Assembly (NCBI GenBank): GCA_016211945.1
Contig: JACRHV010000004.1
Location: forward strand, 194,649-258,648
DNA length: 64,000 nucleotides
Reading direction: 5' to 3'
DNA from: Minisyncoccota bacterium
GTDB taxonomy: Bacteria > Patescibacteriota > Microgenomatia > UBA1400 > UBA12028
Shown here: piece by piece, positions 39,001-48,000 of the stretch
Layout of the letters: each line of letters opens with the position of its first letter
Numbering within the stretch: the stretch's first letter is position 1
Program-made: the position numbers

Positions 39001-42000
39001 ACCTCGCGTGCCGAATTGGAAATAAATTATTTGCTCCATGCTGTGGAGGAGTTCAAAACTGTCAAACCACTTGACTTTTAGTAATTATGATAAATAATAC
39101 AATCAATGTTAATCAAAGTTAAATATGAATGACAAGTTTTACAGCCTCCAAGAAGTTGCCGATCTTTTGAAATTGAACTATCTCACCGTTTTTCGATGGG
39201 CTAAGGTTGGTAAATTACCTGCCTACAAATTTGGTAAGCAATACCGCATTGATCAGATAACTCTTGATGAGTTTATCGCCAAATCCAAGGTCAAAATTCC
39301 TGGAAAGGATCAATCATGAGAGCAGTCATCTTGGCTCGTGTTTCGACTCCTCGTCAAGAAAAGGAAGGTCTTTCCCTCAAAGAAATTCAACTCCCCACTC
39401 TAAGAGAGTACGCCACTGAGCGCGGATTTGAAGTTGCCGAAAAAGATGAGTTCGTTTTCCAGGAAAGTGCCGACAGTAAGATCAGAAAAAAGTTCGATGA
39501 GATGATTGAGTACGTCAAAAAACACAAAGATATTGGCGCTATCATCACATTTAGAGTAGACCGGATTACCCGCAATTTCCGGGATGCAGTAGCGCTAGAC
39601 TCTTTGATGCGGGACTTTGATAAAGAAATTCATTTTGTTAACGACCGACTCATTATCAATAAGAACTCATCCGGCAAAGAGATCCAGGATTGGGATCTGA
39701 AGGTGTTTTTGGCAAAGCAAACGATCAACCGTCTCAAAGATGACGAGCGCATCTCGCGCGCCAGAAAGCTCGAAAATGGCGAATTACCAGGTGGCGCACC
39801 ATTTGGGTACAAAAACGTCACATTGGAAAGTAAGAAAAAGTGGGTAGTCCCGGATGAGTTTAAGTCACAGGTTGTGAAAGCAATTTTTGACTGGTATGTC
39901 AGTGGTAATTACTCGATACTGGAAATCGTTAGGAAGCTCAAAAAGGATTATGATATCAAGAAAAGTAAGAGCGCTGTTCACTTCATATTAAATAACCGAT
40001 TTTACATCGGTGTTATCGTTAACAGCGGACGGCAGTACCCCCACAAATATGAACAGATCATCAAAAAGGAGACGTTCGACAAAGCTCAAGCACTCATGAA
40101 TAAGCGCAACGCTAGAAGCCAGCCATTTAAGTACGCCGGTAAGGAGTTTGCCTACCGTGGGCTCATAACTTGCCAGCAATGTGGCTGCCGCATTACCCCC
40201 GAACTAAAAAAACGCAAACTAGAGAGCGGCGGATACAACTTCCACATTTACTACCACTGCACAAACTACCATCACACCCATGACAAAGTGCTCAACGTGA
40301 AGGAGTCCACATTAGATGTACAGTTTGCAGAGCTGTTTGAAAACTTGGAGATACCTCGAGAAAAATTAGAAGAACTTACCACCTCCCTGAGGGAGTCACA
40401 CCAGGATAAAAACCACTTTATTGAGCAGGAGCTCACCTACCTTACTGGACAGCTCAAGCAACAGCGGACACGGGTAAGCACTGCCTACGAAGACCGGCTC
40501 AACGGAAGTATTACTATTGAAAAGTTTGAGGAAATTCGTAAAAAAGCTGAGGCAAAGGAAGCTGAACTGAAAGAAAAGATTGCCAACATCGAAAAAGCCA
40601 ATCGTGAGTATTACATGACCACTTCACGCCTGGTGGAAATTGGCTCTCGTTCAGCTGATATCTTCTCGCGTTCTAAACCTCATGAGAAAAGGGCTTTACT
40701 CAATTTGGTACTTCAGAACGCAACCTTAGATGGTGAAAAAGTGCGATATAAGGTGAAATTCCCGTTCTCGATGGTTCTAAAATACGCACCGAGTTCAAGT
40801 TGGCTCCCTGAGCCTCAACTCTTTGGGTCAGCCCCAATCAAAGAGCATTTCGACCACTTCCTAGAGGCAATTCAGGACATTCGCTATATGGGTCAAATGA
40901 AGCAGAGATGGCTCGAAATTAAGAAGCTACAGACCGGAGCCGCCTTGTACGATGTGAGAGCGTAAAACCTTACAGGTTACTGCTGCTTTTCTTCAAGGCT
41001 AAACATATCATCAATCTTCTTTTTTTCAGCAGGAGTAAGGGTGTCTTTGCCTTTCATCATCTTCTCTACAGTTCTTGGTAAATCGAGAATTTGCCTTTTT
41101 TCAAGATTACCAACAGACAATGCTGAAAGTAACCCTTCTATCTGATCGTTCAACCCTTTTCTATTCAGCCATGATCCAGATGAGTAAGCACTTAGGTTTG
41201 CTATGATTTTGGCTAGATGTAGAGCTACTTGATCGACTTCCTTTTTAACACGCTGCGTTTTTTGAAAAATTAGCTTCATGTTTTTCAGGTCAACCTCACT
41301 GAGGTTTTTCCTGAAATAGATTACTAAACCAATAAAAAGTGATAATGTCACCAAAGCTAAATAGCTCAATTCCCCAATTCTATTGCTTAACAGAAACAAA
41401 AGCGTAAAAAATCCCAGTAAGGATATGCTAACTAAGGAAGGGACTATGTTTTTCATCATTCAAGATTTAGGCTGGCTTTCAACTCAGTTGCTAACTTTTT
41501 GGCTGATTCAGGGAAGGGATGCTCAGGTTTTTCCGCTATCAATTGTCCAAAAAAGTCTGCGACTGTGGTCTTTGCAATTTTATCTTCGGCTACGCTTAAG
41601 TGAGCAGCAACCAGTTCAACAAACGCCTTGCCCCTTGTCATGGTTTTCTCTTTTTTAGCAAGCTCCTTATCAAGATCTGCAATAGGGTCTTTTTTGTGAA
41701 TTTCTTGAATGTATTTATTTACCGCACTGGAAAAAATATCGATTGGTAACATATCCTCAATCGAAACTGGTTTTTTTGCACCTGTAACAGTCTTCAGGTT
41801 AGTTGTTTGAACACTTTCTTCTTTACTAAGATCTTTTGCCAATTTCAGGTACTGCTTTGCGAGATCTTCGCCCCCTTCATCGCCATCTACGAGTGCCACT
41901 AAATTCCTGCCTTCGGATAGTAGGATTCTTGCAACCCCCAAAGCTTCGCTTTTTCTGTCTCCATCCAATAATGACAAATAGTTCAAATCAATGTTAAGTT

Positions 42001-45000: not shown

Positions 45001-48000
45001 CTGGAGATGATTAATGGCTGCCAGCGACTTTGTACCACGGTAACGGTGGCTTTCGTCCATCAAGATGACCAAGTCCTTCTTCTGCAGAAGTTCTGCAAAA
45101 CTCGATCCCAAAGTCTCCTGATATTTGTGGAAGCGAAACTCTACATCCTTACGCTCATTAAAAATCTTCTGGATGTTAAAAATGTAAATGTTTACTGCCT
45201 CAAAAAGTTTATTACCAAAGTCGGCATAAGCATAGTTTTCACCTGTGACCAGATTAAACATCGGAAAGTCAGTCAAACCTTGCATGACATATTTCTTACT
45301 TCCGTTGGTGAAATTATCAATTGTCTTGGTGTAAATCGTTTCACCGGGTGTGAGAATGAAGAAATCTTTGAGTCCTTTGGTGTAGTAAAGATAAGCGATC
45401 ATGGCACCCATGAGGCGAGTCTTACCAACACCTGTTGCTAGATTAAATGTAAACGAGGGGAAGTTGGTGTCAAACTTCAGATTGCCCGTGAGCTTAGCTT
45501 CAATATCCTTGGGATCCTCGCCAATCTTAAAGGCAGACATTAAAGCATCGAGTTTTGTCAAAGAATGCTCTTGCGGTTTACGCAAGTTCAATTCCTTGAT
45601 GATTTTTTCGTTTATCTTTTGTGGTTTCATACTGTAAATTTCTTCAAAAGAATGTCAGGTATTCTCTTAACTTCTACATTATCGGGCAATTTTAGTTTAC
45701 TGGATACTGTCTTGGCATAAATAACTATGAACTTAGCCTGATCATTGATCTCATTGACCAATGTGTCGACATAATCTTGACTTAAGTATTGCTCAGTCAC
45801 ATGCGCCGCTGTCGTACCAGATAGACCATGTAGACCATTGTCGGGATTAAAAAGTTTGAATCCTTCAACTTTTAGCACTGCACGAATTAGTGAGCCGTTG
45901 TACATCTTGGGATTGATCACAGTAAATCTCAACTCTTCATCACGAACAAATAAGCTGTCACCAAGCTCAAAATACTTAAATCCACCTCCGCCCTTCCAAT
46001 CAACAGTGTCAGTTATGCCACCTTTATCTTTACCACTCAGAACCTTTTCCATTCTTGGAATAATATGAGTCTCTGCATGGTTGCCTAATTCAATCGCAAT
46101 CCACTTACGACCCATTTTATGTGCTACTGCAGGGGTTGTACCCGAACCGGCAAATGAATCAAGTACCCAATCACCCTCATTCGAAGATAAAGTAATTATC
46201 CTCTGCAACAACCTCTCGGGCTTTGGCGTGCTAAATGGCTCTTCACCAAACAACACCTTACTTTCTTTACGAGATTCGTCGTTATGCCCTGCGTCTTCGT
46301 GTGTCCACCAAGTTGTAGCAACAACTCCACCTTGCACCTCATTTAAGTATCTCTTGAGTTGAGGTGCTCCTTTACCGCTTTGTCCAAAAAAGACTCTTCC
46401 ATCTTCAATCCACCTTGCCATGTTTTCTTTATTTGTTAACCACGCACGGCCTTTAGGAGGATTGTAAGATGCCTCGGTTAATGGATTTGTGATGGGGTAA
46501 TCGTAAGCCTTTGAGTAAGTCTTTACAGATAAGTTATCAGAACGCCATAATCCTTTGCCGTCATTACTGTCATATTTATAGAGCGAATCCTGCTTTGAAG
46601 ATCGAGGTAACAAATTCCTACTAAATGAGGCACTTTTTTGATAAACAAGAATGTAATCATGTGCGTCTGGAATTCCTCTAGCATCGTTTGCAGCCGCATA
46701 CTTCTTTTGCCAGACAACACTACATACGAAGTTATGTCTACCGAATATCTCATCACACATCACCTTCAGATAGTGACACTCGTCATCGTCGATACTAATC
46801 CACATTGAACCATTGGGTGATAATAATTTATACAAAGCTTCAATGCGTGTTTTCATTAAACCAAGCCATATCGAGTGTTCCAAACCATCATCATACTGAG
46901 CAAAAGCATTTCCGGTATTGTACGGAGGATCAATGTAGATGAGTTTTATTTTTCTCTGAAAGTCTTGAAGTAATGCCTTAAGAGCAAGAAGATTGTCTCC
47001 TTTTATTAGAAGATTTTCTGTGTCCTTGTCACCATACTGTTGTTTTTCAACTAAAATACGTGGTTCGCTAACTCGAGGATCCTTTCTATCTACCCATTCA
47101 TATTCACCAGAAGAGACATCAAAATACAAGGCTTTGTCTTTGTTCGGCCACTGTAATTCTAGTTTTGTATTTTTCATACTCATACTTATTCTGTAAGTTA
47201 CACATAATTATACATCTTTGAACACCTAAAGGAATGAGAAAGAAGTGGTTTGTTAGCACTTATAAACCTCTGGTCGAAACTTCTTCAAAGTGTGAATTAT
47301 TGCTCTGATATTACCTTTTCTCACCGCCTCGTCGAGCTTGTCATATGCCAAATCGATTCTCTGGTCGATTGAATCATAAAGGATATGACTCCATTTTTCC
47401 GAAAATACTTTGTCGTCATGTCGCCAAGTATATGCAGTATCCCTGTTTATTCCAGCAATCTGAGAAGCCGCTAATACATTTCCCATAACACTATCCATTG
47501 CCTGAAGAAATTTCTCTTTTCGAATTACGGTAGATCTTAACCCTCTTTTTATAGTGTAGTATTTGTCGGATTTCACGCTCATACACTCATTGTATCAAGA
47601 TCAAGGCAGCCCTCGTATACCCTCTTGTCGCCATTGTCTGAGAGGTTCAACCTAATTACAATAGTTGATCATCTCAACAGCTTCCACCGCTTGTGTGCCA
47701 CTTGGTGAGCCTTATATCAGCAAACCACCCAAGTAGGCGGCATGCTGAAGGCAGGGAGCAGACTTACAGCTTAATATCACACACAGCCTGATAATACTGA
47801 CCGACTTTGCTGTCGTACTTGGTAAAAGTGACATTAAGGTTGTACGGTTTATAGTTTCTGTTTTGAGCAGACGCTCCATCTAGCCTTTTCAGGTCGTTCG
47901 GCTTCATGTTGCAAGTTACCAGTATCGTATCCGAACTGTTGTCGTCAGGTTGGGACATAAACTCTGCCTGCGTATCCGTAGGAGCTTGCTCGAGATACAA

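What the first reader, a model, noticed from the sequence alone, without database searches (positions are those of the whole stretch)
40977..47183. Four-gene translationally coupled operon: Type III mod-res fused to an OLD-family ATPase/TOPRIM nuclease and a small 2-TM protein
On the minus strand, mod (45627..47183), res (43306..45630), an OLD-family gene (41456..43309) and a 160-aa 2-TM protein gene (40977..41459) are linked by three ATGA 4-nt overlaps. A -10-like element plus an operator motif lies about 30 nt upstream of mod.

Res carries an intact DExH helicase and a C-terminal PD..EVK nuclease motif. The OLD-like protein has a complete ABC ATPase (Walker A, signature, Walker B, H-loop) and a C-terminal TOPRIM. 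It also has a Pro/Ser/Glu-rich insertion, SPSPSPSPAPEDEE.

OLD-like ATPase/TOPRIM proteins are known on their own (P2 Old), with a UvrD helicase (Gabija GajA/GajB, class 2 OLD), or as PARIS AriAB. Here, instead of a UvrD partner, the gene sits between the SF2 helicase-nuclease Res of a Type III system and a small membrane protein that could be an effector. Such tight coupling of an OLD/Gabija-like nuclease to a Type III R-M plus a 2-TM protein would be an unusual composite defence module, possibly with a membrane abortive-infection arm.
Basis: partly seen in the sequence, partly recalled or inferred. Interest (0 to 1): 0.7.

Follow-up and report, generated by a model that had tools for sequence, protein, structure and literature searches.

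The report
R-M mobile element carrying OLD nuclease
A small mobile element in a candidate-phyla-radiation bacterium carries a Type III restriction-modification operon whose variable end slot here holds an OLD-family nuclease and a stray membrane-protein gene; this exact four-gene set was seen nowhere else, but OLD nucleases have joined Type III operons several separate times.

Summary
Four minus-strand ORFs sit at the stated coordinates and are joined by three ATGA overlaps. They encode an intact Type III Mod, an intact Res, an intact OLD-family ABC-ATPase/TOPRIM protein and a 160-aa 2-TM protein.

The reading as one composite system is only partly supported, because each module moves independently:
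- Res homologs at 74-92% identity lie on ~11 kb serine-recombinase elements. The slot after res, next to the attachment site, holds different genes each time (Dsr1-like; 155+726 aa; 281+176+175 aa; 803+635 aa).
- The closest OLD relatives with readable flanks (80-82%) have no adjacent R-M; a third (86%, split) is cut by a contig end.
- Homologs of the 2-TM protein (67-69%) lie with neither OLD nor R-M, beside a conserved 183-aa partner that the window lacks.

However, the same OLD family abuts genuine Type III mod genes in four other loci. These involve different Type III subfamilies, two gene orders (Mod-OLD-Res and Mod-Res-OLD) and at least three separate tree positions. In unbiased surveys the count was 3/11 full-length members versus 0/116 ATPase-only relatives.

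Most likely this is layered defence cargo: a Class-1-like OLD nuclease co-transcribed with an R-M. Direct R-M/OLD cooperation is possible but unproven. A membrane abortive-infection arm is unlikely.

The parts
45627..47183 (-). Type III R-M methyltransferase (Mod), 518 aa
   Evidence: PF01555 E = 1.9e-48; PADLOC MTase_III PDLC03636 E = 5e-145. 57-74% identical to the Mod of L169, L171-L173 and L174/L175.
43306..45630 (-). Type III R-M restriction subunit (Res), 774 aa: SF2 DExH helicase plus a C-terminal PD-(D/E)xK nuclease
   Evidence: ResIII E = 1e-20, RE_endonuc E = 8e-8, PADLOC REase_III PDLC03648 E = 5e-83. DESH and PD...EVK motifs are visible. Dozens of homologs at 70-92% identity. ATGA overlap with mod.
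41456..43309 (-). OLD-family ABC ATPase + TOPRIM nuclease, 617 aa, Class-1-like, with a disordered Pro/Ser/Glu-rich loop at residues 107-129
   Evidence: AAA_15 E = 2.6e-26; OLD-like_TOPRIM 21.6 bits (cut-off 23.2). PADLOC Old E = 1.3e-27 and AriA E = 6.5e-28. Catalytic residues invariant. Model pLDDT 84.7. Top fold match is TsOLD 6p74. ATGA overlap with res.
40977..41459 (-). 160-aa protein with an N-terminal 2-TM hairpin and a conserved helical C-terminal domain; member of a small family of unknown function, here without its usual 183-aa partner
   Evidence: No Pfam, PADLOC, NCBIfam or PHROG hit. 22 close homologs and 92 representatives. Contexts in L167 and L168 have no OLD and no R-M. Model pLDDT 75. 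The 183-aa partner is absent from the window.
47253..47582 (-). 109-aa HTH protein resembling a small terminase subunit, conserved just upstream of mod; probably the first or second gene of the same transcription unit
   Evidence: phrog_4044 E = 1.3e-7; HTH_Tnp_1_2 E = 1.6e-5, below the cut-off. 48% identical to the gene in the same position in L171-L173, and 39% identical to the gene upstream of Ldh_2-OLD in L001.
47184..47252 (-). Intergenic region with a TGTATAAT -10-like element 23 nt upstream of the mod ATG
   Evidence: Sequence. Not called as a full promoter. A 22-nt motif is repeated at 48779-48800 with 20 of 22 matches.
47764..48255 (-). 163-aa gene at the head of the minus-strand gene set (weak Sie-like hit)
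   Evidence: phrog_8545 E = 3.6e-4. Its position is equivalent to the 151-aa gene of L171.
48320..48592 (+). Cro/cI-type HTH_3 regulator, diverging from the R-M gene set; part of the element backbone
   Evidence: PF01381 E = 2.5e-15. 86% identical to the HTH_3 gene of L171-L173.
50664..52226 (+). Large serine recombinase at the right edge of the ~11.3 kb element; housekeeping rpoD and dnaG follow
   Evidence: Resolvase E = 8.7e-32, plus Recombinase and Zn_ribbon_recom. rpoD and dnaG at 52591-55555. The layout mirrors L171-L173.
39316..40965 (+). Second large serine recombinase, ending 11 nt from the 2-TM stop codon; probably belongs to a neighbouring element inserted in tandem
   Evidence: Resolvase, Recombinase and Zn_ribbon_recom. 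27% identical to the other recombinase.

Best explanation
Window 40.97-52.3 kb is an integrated mobile element of about 11.3 kb in a Candidatus Pacebacteria (CPR) genome. Its backbone has two diverging gene sets. One strand carries a Cro/cI-type regulator, small genes and a large serine recombinase. The other carries a 163-aa gene, a TerS-like HTH gene, Type III mod and Type III res. Between res and the attachment site lies a variable cargo slot.

In this copy the slot holds a Class-1-like OLD nuclease and a 2-TM gene that has lost its usual 183-aa partner. All of these genes are probably transcribed together and translationally coupled.

Mechanism (inferred from the families involved, not shown here):
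- Mod methylates the host's asymmetric target sites, and the Mod-Res complex cuts unmethylated incoming DNA.
- The OLD protein is a second, self-sufficient layer. It would be an ABC-ATPase dimer or oligomer controlling a two-metal TOPRIM nuclease that nicks or degrades DNA, as TsOLD and P2 Old do. It acts on what R-M leaves behind or misses.
- The repeated, independent arrival of this OLD family in Type III operons suggests the pairing is advantageous. The OLD gene does not need the R-M, and the 2-TM gene is probably bystander cargo.
For: Shown here:
- Gene calls and intact motifs. ATGA junctions.
- The host is a Pacebacteria MAG.
- Backbone homology to L171-L173: HTH_3 86%, HTH109 48%, Mod 74%, Res 85%.
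- L172 is a closed 11.1 kb circle. L173 is a 100%-identical permutation of it, and L171 is the integrated copy. The circle junction lies about 90 nt past the last cargo gene.
- The right border is fixed by rpoD and dnaG.
- Slot contents differ in every relative: Dsr1-like, 155+726 aa, 281+176+175 aa, 803+635 aa. The slot genes tested against one another show no similarity.
- OLD relatives at 80-82% identity have no adjacent R-M. Distant plasmid relatives are stand-alone.
- 2-TM homologs occur without OLD or R-M.
- Recurrent association with R-M: Type III in L088, L010, L089 and L011; Type I in L086; Type II in L165. These fall at three or more separate positions in the tree. Counts are 3/11 versus 0/116, Fisher p = 5e-4.

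From the literature:
- Class 1 OLD proteins are stand-alone nucleases (PMC10568477, PMC6755086).
- OLD-ABC/TOPRIM modules embedded in BREX operons have been described as backup effectors (PMC12839542).
Against: - No transcript or activity data exist, so an internal promoter cannot be excluded.
- Tight ATGA coupling, together with the Mod-OLD-Res order in L010 and L089 (gaps of 3-5 nt or overlaps), looks more integrated than mere adjacency and could mean direct cooperation.
- The survey is small: about 19 informative OLD loci, 5 Res contexts and 2 contexts for the 2-TM gene.
- L001 has a different, non-homologous 2-TM gene overlapping its OLD gene by 4 nt. This leaves open that OLD proteins of this clade do use some small membrane partner.
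- Whether the 2-TM gene works without its 183-aa partner is unknown.
Confidence: 0.55

Rival explanations
1. The R-M and OLD form one integrated system. OLD would either act as a 'guardian' that senses inhibition or evasion of the Type III enzyme (as PrrC does in a Type Ic locus, and as PARIS senses Ocr) and then degrades nucleic acid, or act as the exonuclease that destroys DNA once Res has linearised it.
For: - Translational coupling.
- OLD genes inserted between mod and res in L010 and L089 with 3-5 nt gaps or overlaps, and directly after mod in L011. These three form one clade, which suggests the arrangement is inherited.
- Further independent unions in L088 and the window, plus a Type I case (L086).
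- Enrichment of 3/11 versus 0/116.
- The guardian concept is established for PrrC and PARIS (PMC12707154), and OLD-ABC modules are proposed as backup effectors in BREX (PMC12839542).
- TsOLD and P2 Old are 5'-3' exonucleases on linear DNA (PMC10568477).
Against: - In the window's own OLD clade the gene occurs without an adjacent R-M, so it cannot depend on R-M.
- The slot after res is filled by unrelated genes in the closest Res relatives, which argues for a cargo hotspot.
- There is no evidence of physical interaction and no co-phylogeny test.
- Both gene types are common cargo of the same serine-recombinase elements, which could by itself raise the rate of adjacency.
Confidence: 0.28
2. OLD and the 2-TM protein form a two-gene abortive-infection module. 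OLD senses infection and the membrane protein is the effector or anchor.
For: - ATGA overlap between OLD and the 2-TM gene.
- L001 has a non-homologous 263-aa 2-TM gene overlapping its OLD gene. L003 (2-TM) and L007/L008 (5-TM) have membrane-protein genes 260-310 nt downstream.
- The 2-TM family's soluble domain is strongly conserved, so it is a functional protein.
Against: - The two homologs of this 2-TM protein with known context lie beside neither OLD nor R-M. One follows a caspase-like protease and the other a 296-aa membrane protein, and both have a conserved 183-aa partner that the window lacks.
- P0002 (80% identical OLD) and the R-M-linked OLDs of L088, L010 and L089 have no such membrane partner.
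- The membrane proteins near other OLDs are unrelated to one another. Membrane proteins are common enough that 4 of about 9 is not clearly above chance (my estimate).
- No hit to any defence-effector model.
Confidence: 0.1
3. The OLD gene serves the mobile element rather than host defence, for example in competition with other elements, stabilisation or addiction of the element, or processing of element DNA.
For: - The family repeatedly sits next to large serine recombinases and on conjugative or integrative elements (window, L001, L003, L087, L088, L164-L166, P0002).
- The original P2 Old is a prophage gene acting against a competing phage (PMC10568477).
Against: - Inter-element competition is itself a form of defence, so this overlaps with the main explanation.
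- No replication or partition genes are linked to it consistently.
- The neighbours are mostly defence genes (R-M, Dsr1-like).
Confidence: 0.07

Closest known systems
Class 1 OLD nucleases (P2 Old, Thermus scotoductus OLD, E. coli YbjD)
   Same: [quoted passage not shown] TsOLD is the best sequence match and the best fold match among solved structures. Close relatives occur as single genes on mobile elements.
   Different: Only about 15% identical to TsOLD. Carries a disordered Pro/Ser/Glu-rich loop. In the window it overlaps a Type III res gene, whereas Class 1 is defined as a single gene not proximal to other defence genes (PMC10568477).
Type III restriction-modification systems (EcoP1I/EcoP15I type)
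   Same: The mod-then-res operon order, an N6_N4 methyltransferase, and an SF2 DExH helicase with a C-terminal PD-(D/E)xK nuclease.
   Different: Res is short (774 aa), and its nearest NCBIfam model is the BPTD_3080 family, far below that model's cut-off. The operon carries extra, variable genes after res and rides on an ~11 kb serine-recombinase element.
R-M 'guardian' genes: PrrC inside the Type Ic EcoprrI locus, and PARIS (AriA/AriB)
   Same: An ABC-type ATPase plus nuclease, either encoded inside an R-M operon (PrrC) or responding to anti-restriction proteins (PARIS) (PMC12707154). The ATPase hits the AriA model at E = 6.5e-28.
   Different: PrrC has an anticodon-nuclease domain, not TOPRIM. 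PARIS is normally two proteins, with a DUF4435-type AriB. No trigger is known here, and close relatives of the OLD gene live without R-M.
OLD-ABC/TOPRIM modules embedded in BREX and BREX-related operons
   Same: OLD-type ATPase-nuclease genes sitting inside the operon of a methylation-based defence system, interpreted as backup effectors (PMC12839542).
   Different: The partner there is BREX, not Type III R-M. I could not read the earlier ABC-ATPase survey (Krishnan et al. 2020), so I do not know whether it already lists Type III contexts.
Gabija (Class 2 OLD: GajA + GajB)
   Same: The ATPase+TOPRIM architecture. GajA is the second-best structural match.
   Different: There is no UvrD-like GajB. 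The adjacent helicase is the SF2 Res of an R-M system.
Defence hotspots of small integrative elements and phage satellites (P4, PICI)
   Same: A small element with a recombinase, a repressor-like HTH and a TerS-like gene, plus one position where unrelated defence genes replace each other (PMC9122126 for P2/P4).
   Different: The host is a CPR bacterium and the recombinase is a large serine recombinase. Satellite behaviour (helper-phage dependence) is untested.

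Membership tests
Type III restriction-modification system | Mod: an N6/N4 DNA methyltransferase of the Type III architecture | tested here: met
   PF01555 E = 1.9e-48; PADLOC MTase_III PDLC03636 E = 5e-145, aligned over residues 3-515.
Type III restriction-modification system | Res: SF2 helicase motifs (DExH) plus a C-terminal PD-(D/E)xK endonuclease | tested here: met
   ResIII E = 1e-20, RE_endonuc E = 8e-8, REase_III E = 5e-83. DESH and PD...EVK motifs visible.
Type III restriction-modification system | mod immediately followed by res in one operon | tested here: met
   ATGA overlap at 45627-45630.
Type III restriction-modification system | Methylation of one strand of an asymmetric site, and ATP-dependent cleavage of unmodified DNA | not testable with these tools
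   Requires methylome data or biochemistry.
OLD family nuclease | N-terminal OLD-type ABC ATPase with Walker A, signature, Walker B and H-loop | tested here: met
   AAA_15 E = 2.6e-26 over residues 1-360. G31-K37, D323/E324 and H355 are invariant in 27 sequences.
OLD family nuclease | C-terminal TOPRIM domain with the catalytic Glu and the DxD motif | tested here: met
   E419, D475 and D477 are invariant. OLD-like_TOPRIM scores 21.6 bits against a 23.2-bit cut-off, so it is sub-threshold at the sequence level. The fold match to TsOLD 6p74 has E = 6e-13.
Class 1 OLD | A single gene not next to other defence genes | tested here: not met
   In the window it overlaps res. Relatives P0002, L084, L085 and L164 do meet this feature.
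Gabija (Class 2 OLD) | An adjacent UvrD/PcrA/Rep-like SF1 helicase (GajB) | tested here: not met
   The neighbours are Res (SF2, ResIII) and a 2-TM protein. No UvrD-like gene lies between 36 and 52 kb.
PARIS (Class 4 OLD) | A separate AriA ATPase and AriB (DUF4435/TOPRIM) pair | tested here: not met
   ATPase and TOPRIM are fused in one 617-aa protein. The hit to the fused AriAB model is weaker (E = 4e-14) than the hit to Old (E = 1.3e-27).
Retron-associated OLD (Class 3) | An adjacent reverse transcriptase and ncRNA | tested here: not met
   No RVT domain in any tested gene between 33.9 and 52.2 kb. The retron Eco8 effector model scores 40.6 bits against a 250-bit cut-off. The ncRNA was not searched for.
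R-M guardian (PrrC/PARIS-like function) | Activated by inhibition of the cognate R-M enzyme or by anti-restriction proteins | not testable with these tools
   Only the genomic embedding could be tested. It is recurrent.

The most novel reading that the evidence does not exclude
OLD nucleases embedded in Type III R-M operons would be a distinct, so far unnamed OLD class. The clearest case is the Mod-OLD-Res clade of L010, L089 and L011; the window and L088 would be independent Mod-Res-OLD versions. In this reading the OLD protein works physically or functionally with Mod-Res, either as a sensor of R-M evasion or as the exonuclease that finishes restricted DNA. That role might matter especially in reduced CPR genomes, which may lack RecBCD-type enzymes.
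Probability: 0.25. Interest if true: 0.7.

Novelty: new variant of a known kind. Interest (0 to 1): 0.42.

Why it matters
The published OLD classes are defined by neighbourhood: alone, with UvrD, with a retron, or as AriA/AriB. A Type III R-M-embedded arrangement that arose several times would add a fifth context. It would also offer a tractable test of the 'R-M guardian' idea beyond PrrC and PARIS.

Separately, the ~11 kb serine-recombinase elements are a concrete example of how CPR bacteria, which are poorly studied for immunity, exchange defence genes. They carry a conserved Type III R-M and a swappable slot next to the attachment site. That slot could be mined for new defence genes; the 726-aa, 803-aa, 281-aa and 2-TM/183-aa genes match no known family.

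If the OLD gene is merely co-resident cargo, the finding is an ordinary case of defence-gene clustering.

Tried and rejected
- Near-identical DNA in plasmid and phage collections: none found.
- The OLD family on IMG/VR viral contigs: none. One weak phage hit only.
- tRNA genes as integration sites: none in the window.
- Direct repeats as att sites: only short families at chance level. Serine recombinases need only very short cores, so this is uninformative.
- Annotating the 2-TM protein: no hit in Pfam, NCBIfam, PADLOC or PHROGs. A deep profile search found only small proteins with no informative fusion. The model's pTM of 0.37 is too low for a meaningful fold search, so none was run.
- Homology between the 2-TM protein and the membrane proteins downstream of other OLD genes (L001, L003, L007), or other slot genes: none.
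- A remnant of the 183-aa partner in the window: none.
- Annotated plasmid relatives, to find a cultured example of OLD within R-M: four contexts checked, all stand-alone.
- Reading Krishnan et al. 2020 (ABC ATPase survey), which may already list R-M-linked OLD neighbourhoods: not held in the library.
- Gabija, PARIS and retron membership were considered and rejected on missing partner genes.

Full report

Yes. The ORF list gives four minus-strand ORFs at exactly the stated coordinates. All three junctions read ATGA when checked base by base.

- Mod (45627-47183) matches PF01555 (E = 1.9e-48) and the PADLOC Type III methyltransferase model PDLC03636 over its whole length (E = 5e-145).
- Res (43306-45630) matches ResIII and RE_endonuc, and PADLOC REase_III (E = 5e-83). 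It shows the DESH helicase motif and a C-terminal PD...EVK motif.
- The 617-aa protein (41456-43309) matches AAA_15 (E = 2.6e-26), AAA_21 and OLD-like_TOPRIM. The TOPRIM hit scores 21.6 bits, just below the 23.2-bit cut-off.
- In an alignment of 27 family members, Walker A (G31-K37), Walker B (D323/E324), the H-loop His (H355), the TOPRIM Glu (E419) and the DxD (D475/D477) are all invariant.
- The AlphaFold model of this protein is confident (pLDDT 84.7, pTM 0.73). The Pro/Ser/Glu-rich insertion (residues 107-129) is predicted to be disordered.
- The best solved-structure match, by sequence and by fold, is the Class 1 OLD of Thermus scotoductus (6p74), followed by GajA.
- The 160-aa protein has two N-terminal hydrophobic helices and a helical C-terminal part.

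Some caveats apply.

- TGTATAAT lies 23 nt upstream of the mod ATG, but the scan calls no full promoter there. Promoter-like hits in the region are no more frequent than in shuffled sequence (19 versus 14.8 +/- 3.8).
- The 'operator' motif recurs once, at 48779-48800 (20 of 22 bases). By my estimate that is roughly chance level.
- A TerS-like HTH gene (47253-47582) lies 69 nt upstream of mod and is conserved in that position, so the unit is probably longer than four genes.

**2. Where is it?**

The OLD-like protein is 100% identical to a protein from a Candidatus Pacebacteria MAG, on a 331 kb contig.

The operon lies between two large serine recombinase genes (39316-40965 and 50664-52226). The right-hand recombinase is followed directly by housekeeping rpoD and dnaG.

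The layout is mirrored in L171-L173. On one strand: HTH_3 regulator, small genes, recombinase. Diverging on the other strand: 163-aa gene, HTH109, Mod, Res, cargo. Identities to L171-L173 are HTH_3 86%, HTH109 48%, Mod 74% and Res 85%.

L172 is a closed circle of about 11.1 kb (30-nt terminal overlap). L173 is a 100%-identical circular permutation of it. L171 carries the same 11,099 bp integrated in a 42.5 kb contig. The circle junction lies about 90 nt beyond the last cargo gene, so the genes after res abut the attachment site.

The window's element is therefore about 40.97-52.3 kb. The left-hand recombinase ends 11 nt from the 2-TM stop codon and probably belongs to a neighbouring element inserted in tandem. 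That last point is inference.

**3. Are the four genes a unit?**

Each module was traced separately.

(a) Res has dozens of homologs at 70-92% identity. Five independent contexts were read, and in each the position after res holds something different:
- L169: a Dsr1-like protein (92% Res).
- L171-L173: 155 + 726 aa (85%).
- L174/L175: 281 + 176 + 175 aa (83%).
- L176: 803 + 635 aa (74%).
- The window: OLD + 2-TM.

The slot genes I compared with one another (those of L169, L171 and L174, plus the window's) show no similarity.

(b) The OLD protein has only three close relatives.
- P0002 (80%) stands alone in a conjugative element.
- P0003/L001 (82%) lies in the order HTH109-like, Ldh_2-family gene, OLD, an unrelated 263-aa 2-TM gene, serine recombinase.
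- P0004/L170 (86%) appears split by a frameshift. It has no R-M or 2-TM gene downstream, and its upstream side is cut by the contig end.

(c) The 2-TM protein has 22 close homologs. The two contexts I could read (L167, L168; 67-69% identity) contain neither OLD nor R-M. The gene follows a 296-aa membrane protein in one and a caspase-like Peptidase_C14 protein in the other. In both it is followed by a conserved 183-aa gene (72% identical between the two loci) that is absent from the window.

So the exact four-gene synteny was not found anywhere else, and every module occurs on its own.

**4. The OLD / R-M link is still not chance.**

Two unbiased surveys with the family alignment (metagenomes; one genome per GTDB species), together with context look-ups, gave about 19 informative loci that encode full-length family members.

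A family member directly abuts a mod gene in four of them:
- L088: Mod-Res-OLD, with a divergent serine recombinase.
- L010: Mod-OLD-Res, with gaps of 5 and 3 nt.
- L089: Mod-OLD-Res, with overlapping ORFs, in a Magasanikbacteria MAG.
- L011: Mod-OLD.

PADLOC confirms that these are genuine Type III genes (MTase_III E = 1e-141 to 1e-186; REase_III E = 1e-91 to 1e-113). It also places them in different subfamilies from the window and, in part, from each other. The best Mod models are PDLC03635 (L010 and L089), 03644 (L088), 03634 (L011) and 03636 (window). The best Res models are PDLC03651 (L010 and L089), 03650 (L088) and 03648 (window).

In addition, L086 has hsdR-hsdM-hsdS followed by OLD and then an RT-domain protein. 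L165 has a Type II R-M plus a serine recombinase next to OLD.

On a neighbour-joining tree, L010, L089 and L011 form one clade. L088 sits in another, with members that are not linked to Type III. In the window's own clade, only the window has an R-M. That implies at least three independent unions with Type III systems.

As an internal control, within the two surveys a Type III mod lies beside 3 of 11 full-length members with enough flank, and beside 0 of 116 ATPase-only relatives (Fisher p = 5e-4). Distant stand-alone relatives on plasmids show no R-M adjacency (0 of 4).

**5. Mechanism.**

What is shown: an intact Type III R-M and an intact OLD nuclease gene are translationally coupled on a mobile element. 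The OLD gene occupies a variable slot. The OLD family does not need R-M, but it joins R-M operons repeatedly.

What is inferred from the families involved:
- Mod protects host DNA, and Mod-Res cuts unmethylated DNA.
- The OLD protein, like TsOLD and P2 Old, is an ATP-regulated two-metal TOPRIM nuclease that nicks or degrades DNA (PMC10568477, PMC6755086).

My preferred reading (0.55) is layered but autonomous defence cargo.

The main rival (0.28) is true cooperation. OLD would be either a guardian that fires when R-M is evaded, as PrrC and PARIS do (PMC12707154) and as proposed for OLD-ABC modules in BREX operons (PMC12839542), or an exonuclease that finishes Res-cut DNA. The Mod-OLD-Res clade is the best argument for this rival.

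A two-gene OLD + 2-TM abortive-infection module (0.10) has little support, because this 2-TM family lives elsewhere with other partners. One loose end remains: L001 has a non-homologous 2-TM gene overlapping its OLD gene, and L003 and L007/L008 have membrane-protein genes 260-310 nt downstream.

**6. Comparison with what is known, and novelty.**

The protein is an OLD-family nuclease and is closest to Class 1. It is not Gabija (no UvrD-like GajB), not PARIS (ATPase and TOPRIM are fused, with no separate AriB) and not a retron effector (no RT).

Published OLD classes are defined by neighbourhood and include no R-M-embedded class (PMC10568477, PMC6755086). Schiltz et al. did note that 107 of 837 old genes lie in species-specific operons, some with defence genes. 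OLD-ABC modules inside BREX have been described (PMC12839542).

I could not read Krishnan et al. 2020, which may already list such neighbourhoods.

I therefore rate this as a new variant of a known kind. The window's own arrangement is ordinary defence-cargo clustering. The recurrent union of OLD with Type III R-M, and the swappable slot on CPR elements, are the parts worth following up.

**7. Limits.**

- The context samples are small.
- The tree is a simple neighbour-joining tree without support values.
- TM calls come from a hydropathy window.
- Element borders are inferred by homology, not from att sequences.
- Nothing about expression or activity is known.

Noticed in passing
window 40970-52300; L171:962-12060; L172; L173: The R-M operon rides on an ~11 kb serine-recombinase element. 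In relatives the element is seen both as a closed circle (L172, with L173 a 100%-identical permutation) and integrated (L171). It combines a Cro/cI-type regulator, a small-terminase-like HTH gene and a recombinase, which resembles a phage satellite. That would be unusual for CPR bacteria.
   Followed up: partly
window 35555-40965: A second, neighbouring element-like block on the plus strand: a gp3/small-terminase-like gene (35555-35962), a Zn-ribbon membrane protein (36309-37241), 99-aa and 372-aa unknowns, and a second large serine recombinase ending 11 nt from the 2-TM stop codon. This looks like tandem accretion at one site.
   Followed up: partly
L167:6534-8478; L168:1453-4437: The 2-TM gene family travels with a conserved 183-aa gene (72% identical between the two loci). 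The pair lies behind unrelated upstream genes: a caspase-like Peptidase_C14 / PDC-S65-like protein in L168 and a 296-aa 2-TM protein in L167. This may be an uncharacterised small module in Patescibacteria.
   Followed up: partly
L169:5133-7424; L171:9326-11970; L174:9326-11237; L176:10328-14801: The slot after res in related elements holds a Dsr1-like protein or large proteins with no family hit (726 aa, 803 aa, 635 aa, 281 aa). These are candidate unknown defence genes.
   Followed up: partly
L086:4305-15039: In a Chryseolinea MAG, a family member follows a complete Type I hsdR-hsdM-hsdS operon and is itself followed by a 1014-aa protein with a reverse-transcriptase domain.
   Followed up: no
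L016, L020 and about 100 other loci: An abundant ATPase-only branch (~380 aa, lacking the TOPRIM region) in KSB1, Calditrichota and 'Cytophagia' MAGs. In the two loci inspected, conserved divergent genes of 546-549 aa and 349 aa lie next to it. None of these loci has a Type III mod nearby.
   Followed up: no
window 47194-47215 and 48779-48800: The 22-nt AT-rich motif that overlaps the -10-like element upstream of mod recurs (20 of 22 bases) near the start of the plus-strand gene set. It could be a shared regulator site, but by my estimate it is about chance level.
   Followed up: partly
window 32974-35381: A D12-class (Dam-like) DNA methyltransferase (32974-33858) next to a 504-aa protein that matches phage family phrog_9592 of unknown function (E = 1e-37).
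   Followed up: no
window 30758-31858: A 366-aa fusion of a serine-hydrolase domain with an aminoglycoside-2''-adenylyltransferase-like nucleotidyltransferase domain.
   Followed up: no
L170:3-1683: The closest relative of the window's OLD gene (86% identity) is called as two overlapping ORFs (215 + 349 aa). This suggests a frameshifted, decaying copy or a sequencing error.
   Followed up: no
window 40977-47183: Third-position GC differs within the operon: Res 0.50, against Mod 0.345, OLD 0.37 and 2-TM 0.37. This is consistent with a mosaic origin, although the odd one out is res rather than the cargo genes.
   Followed up: no
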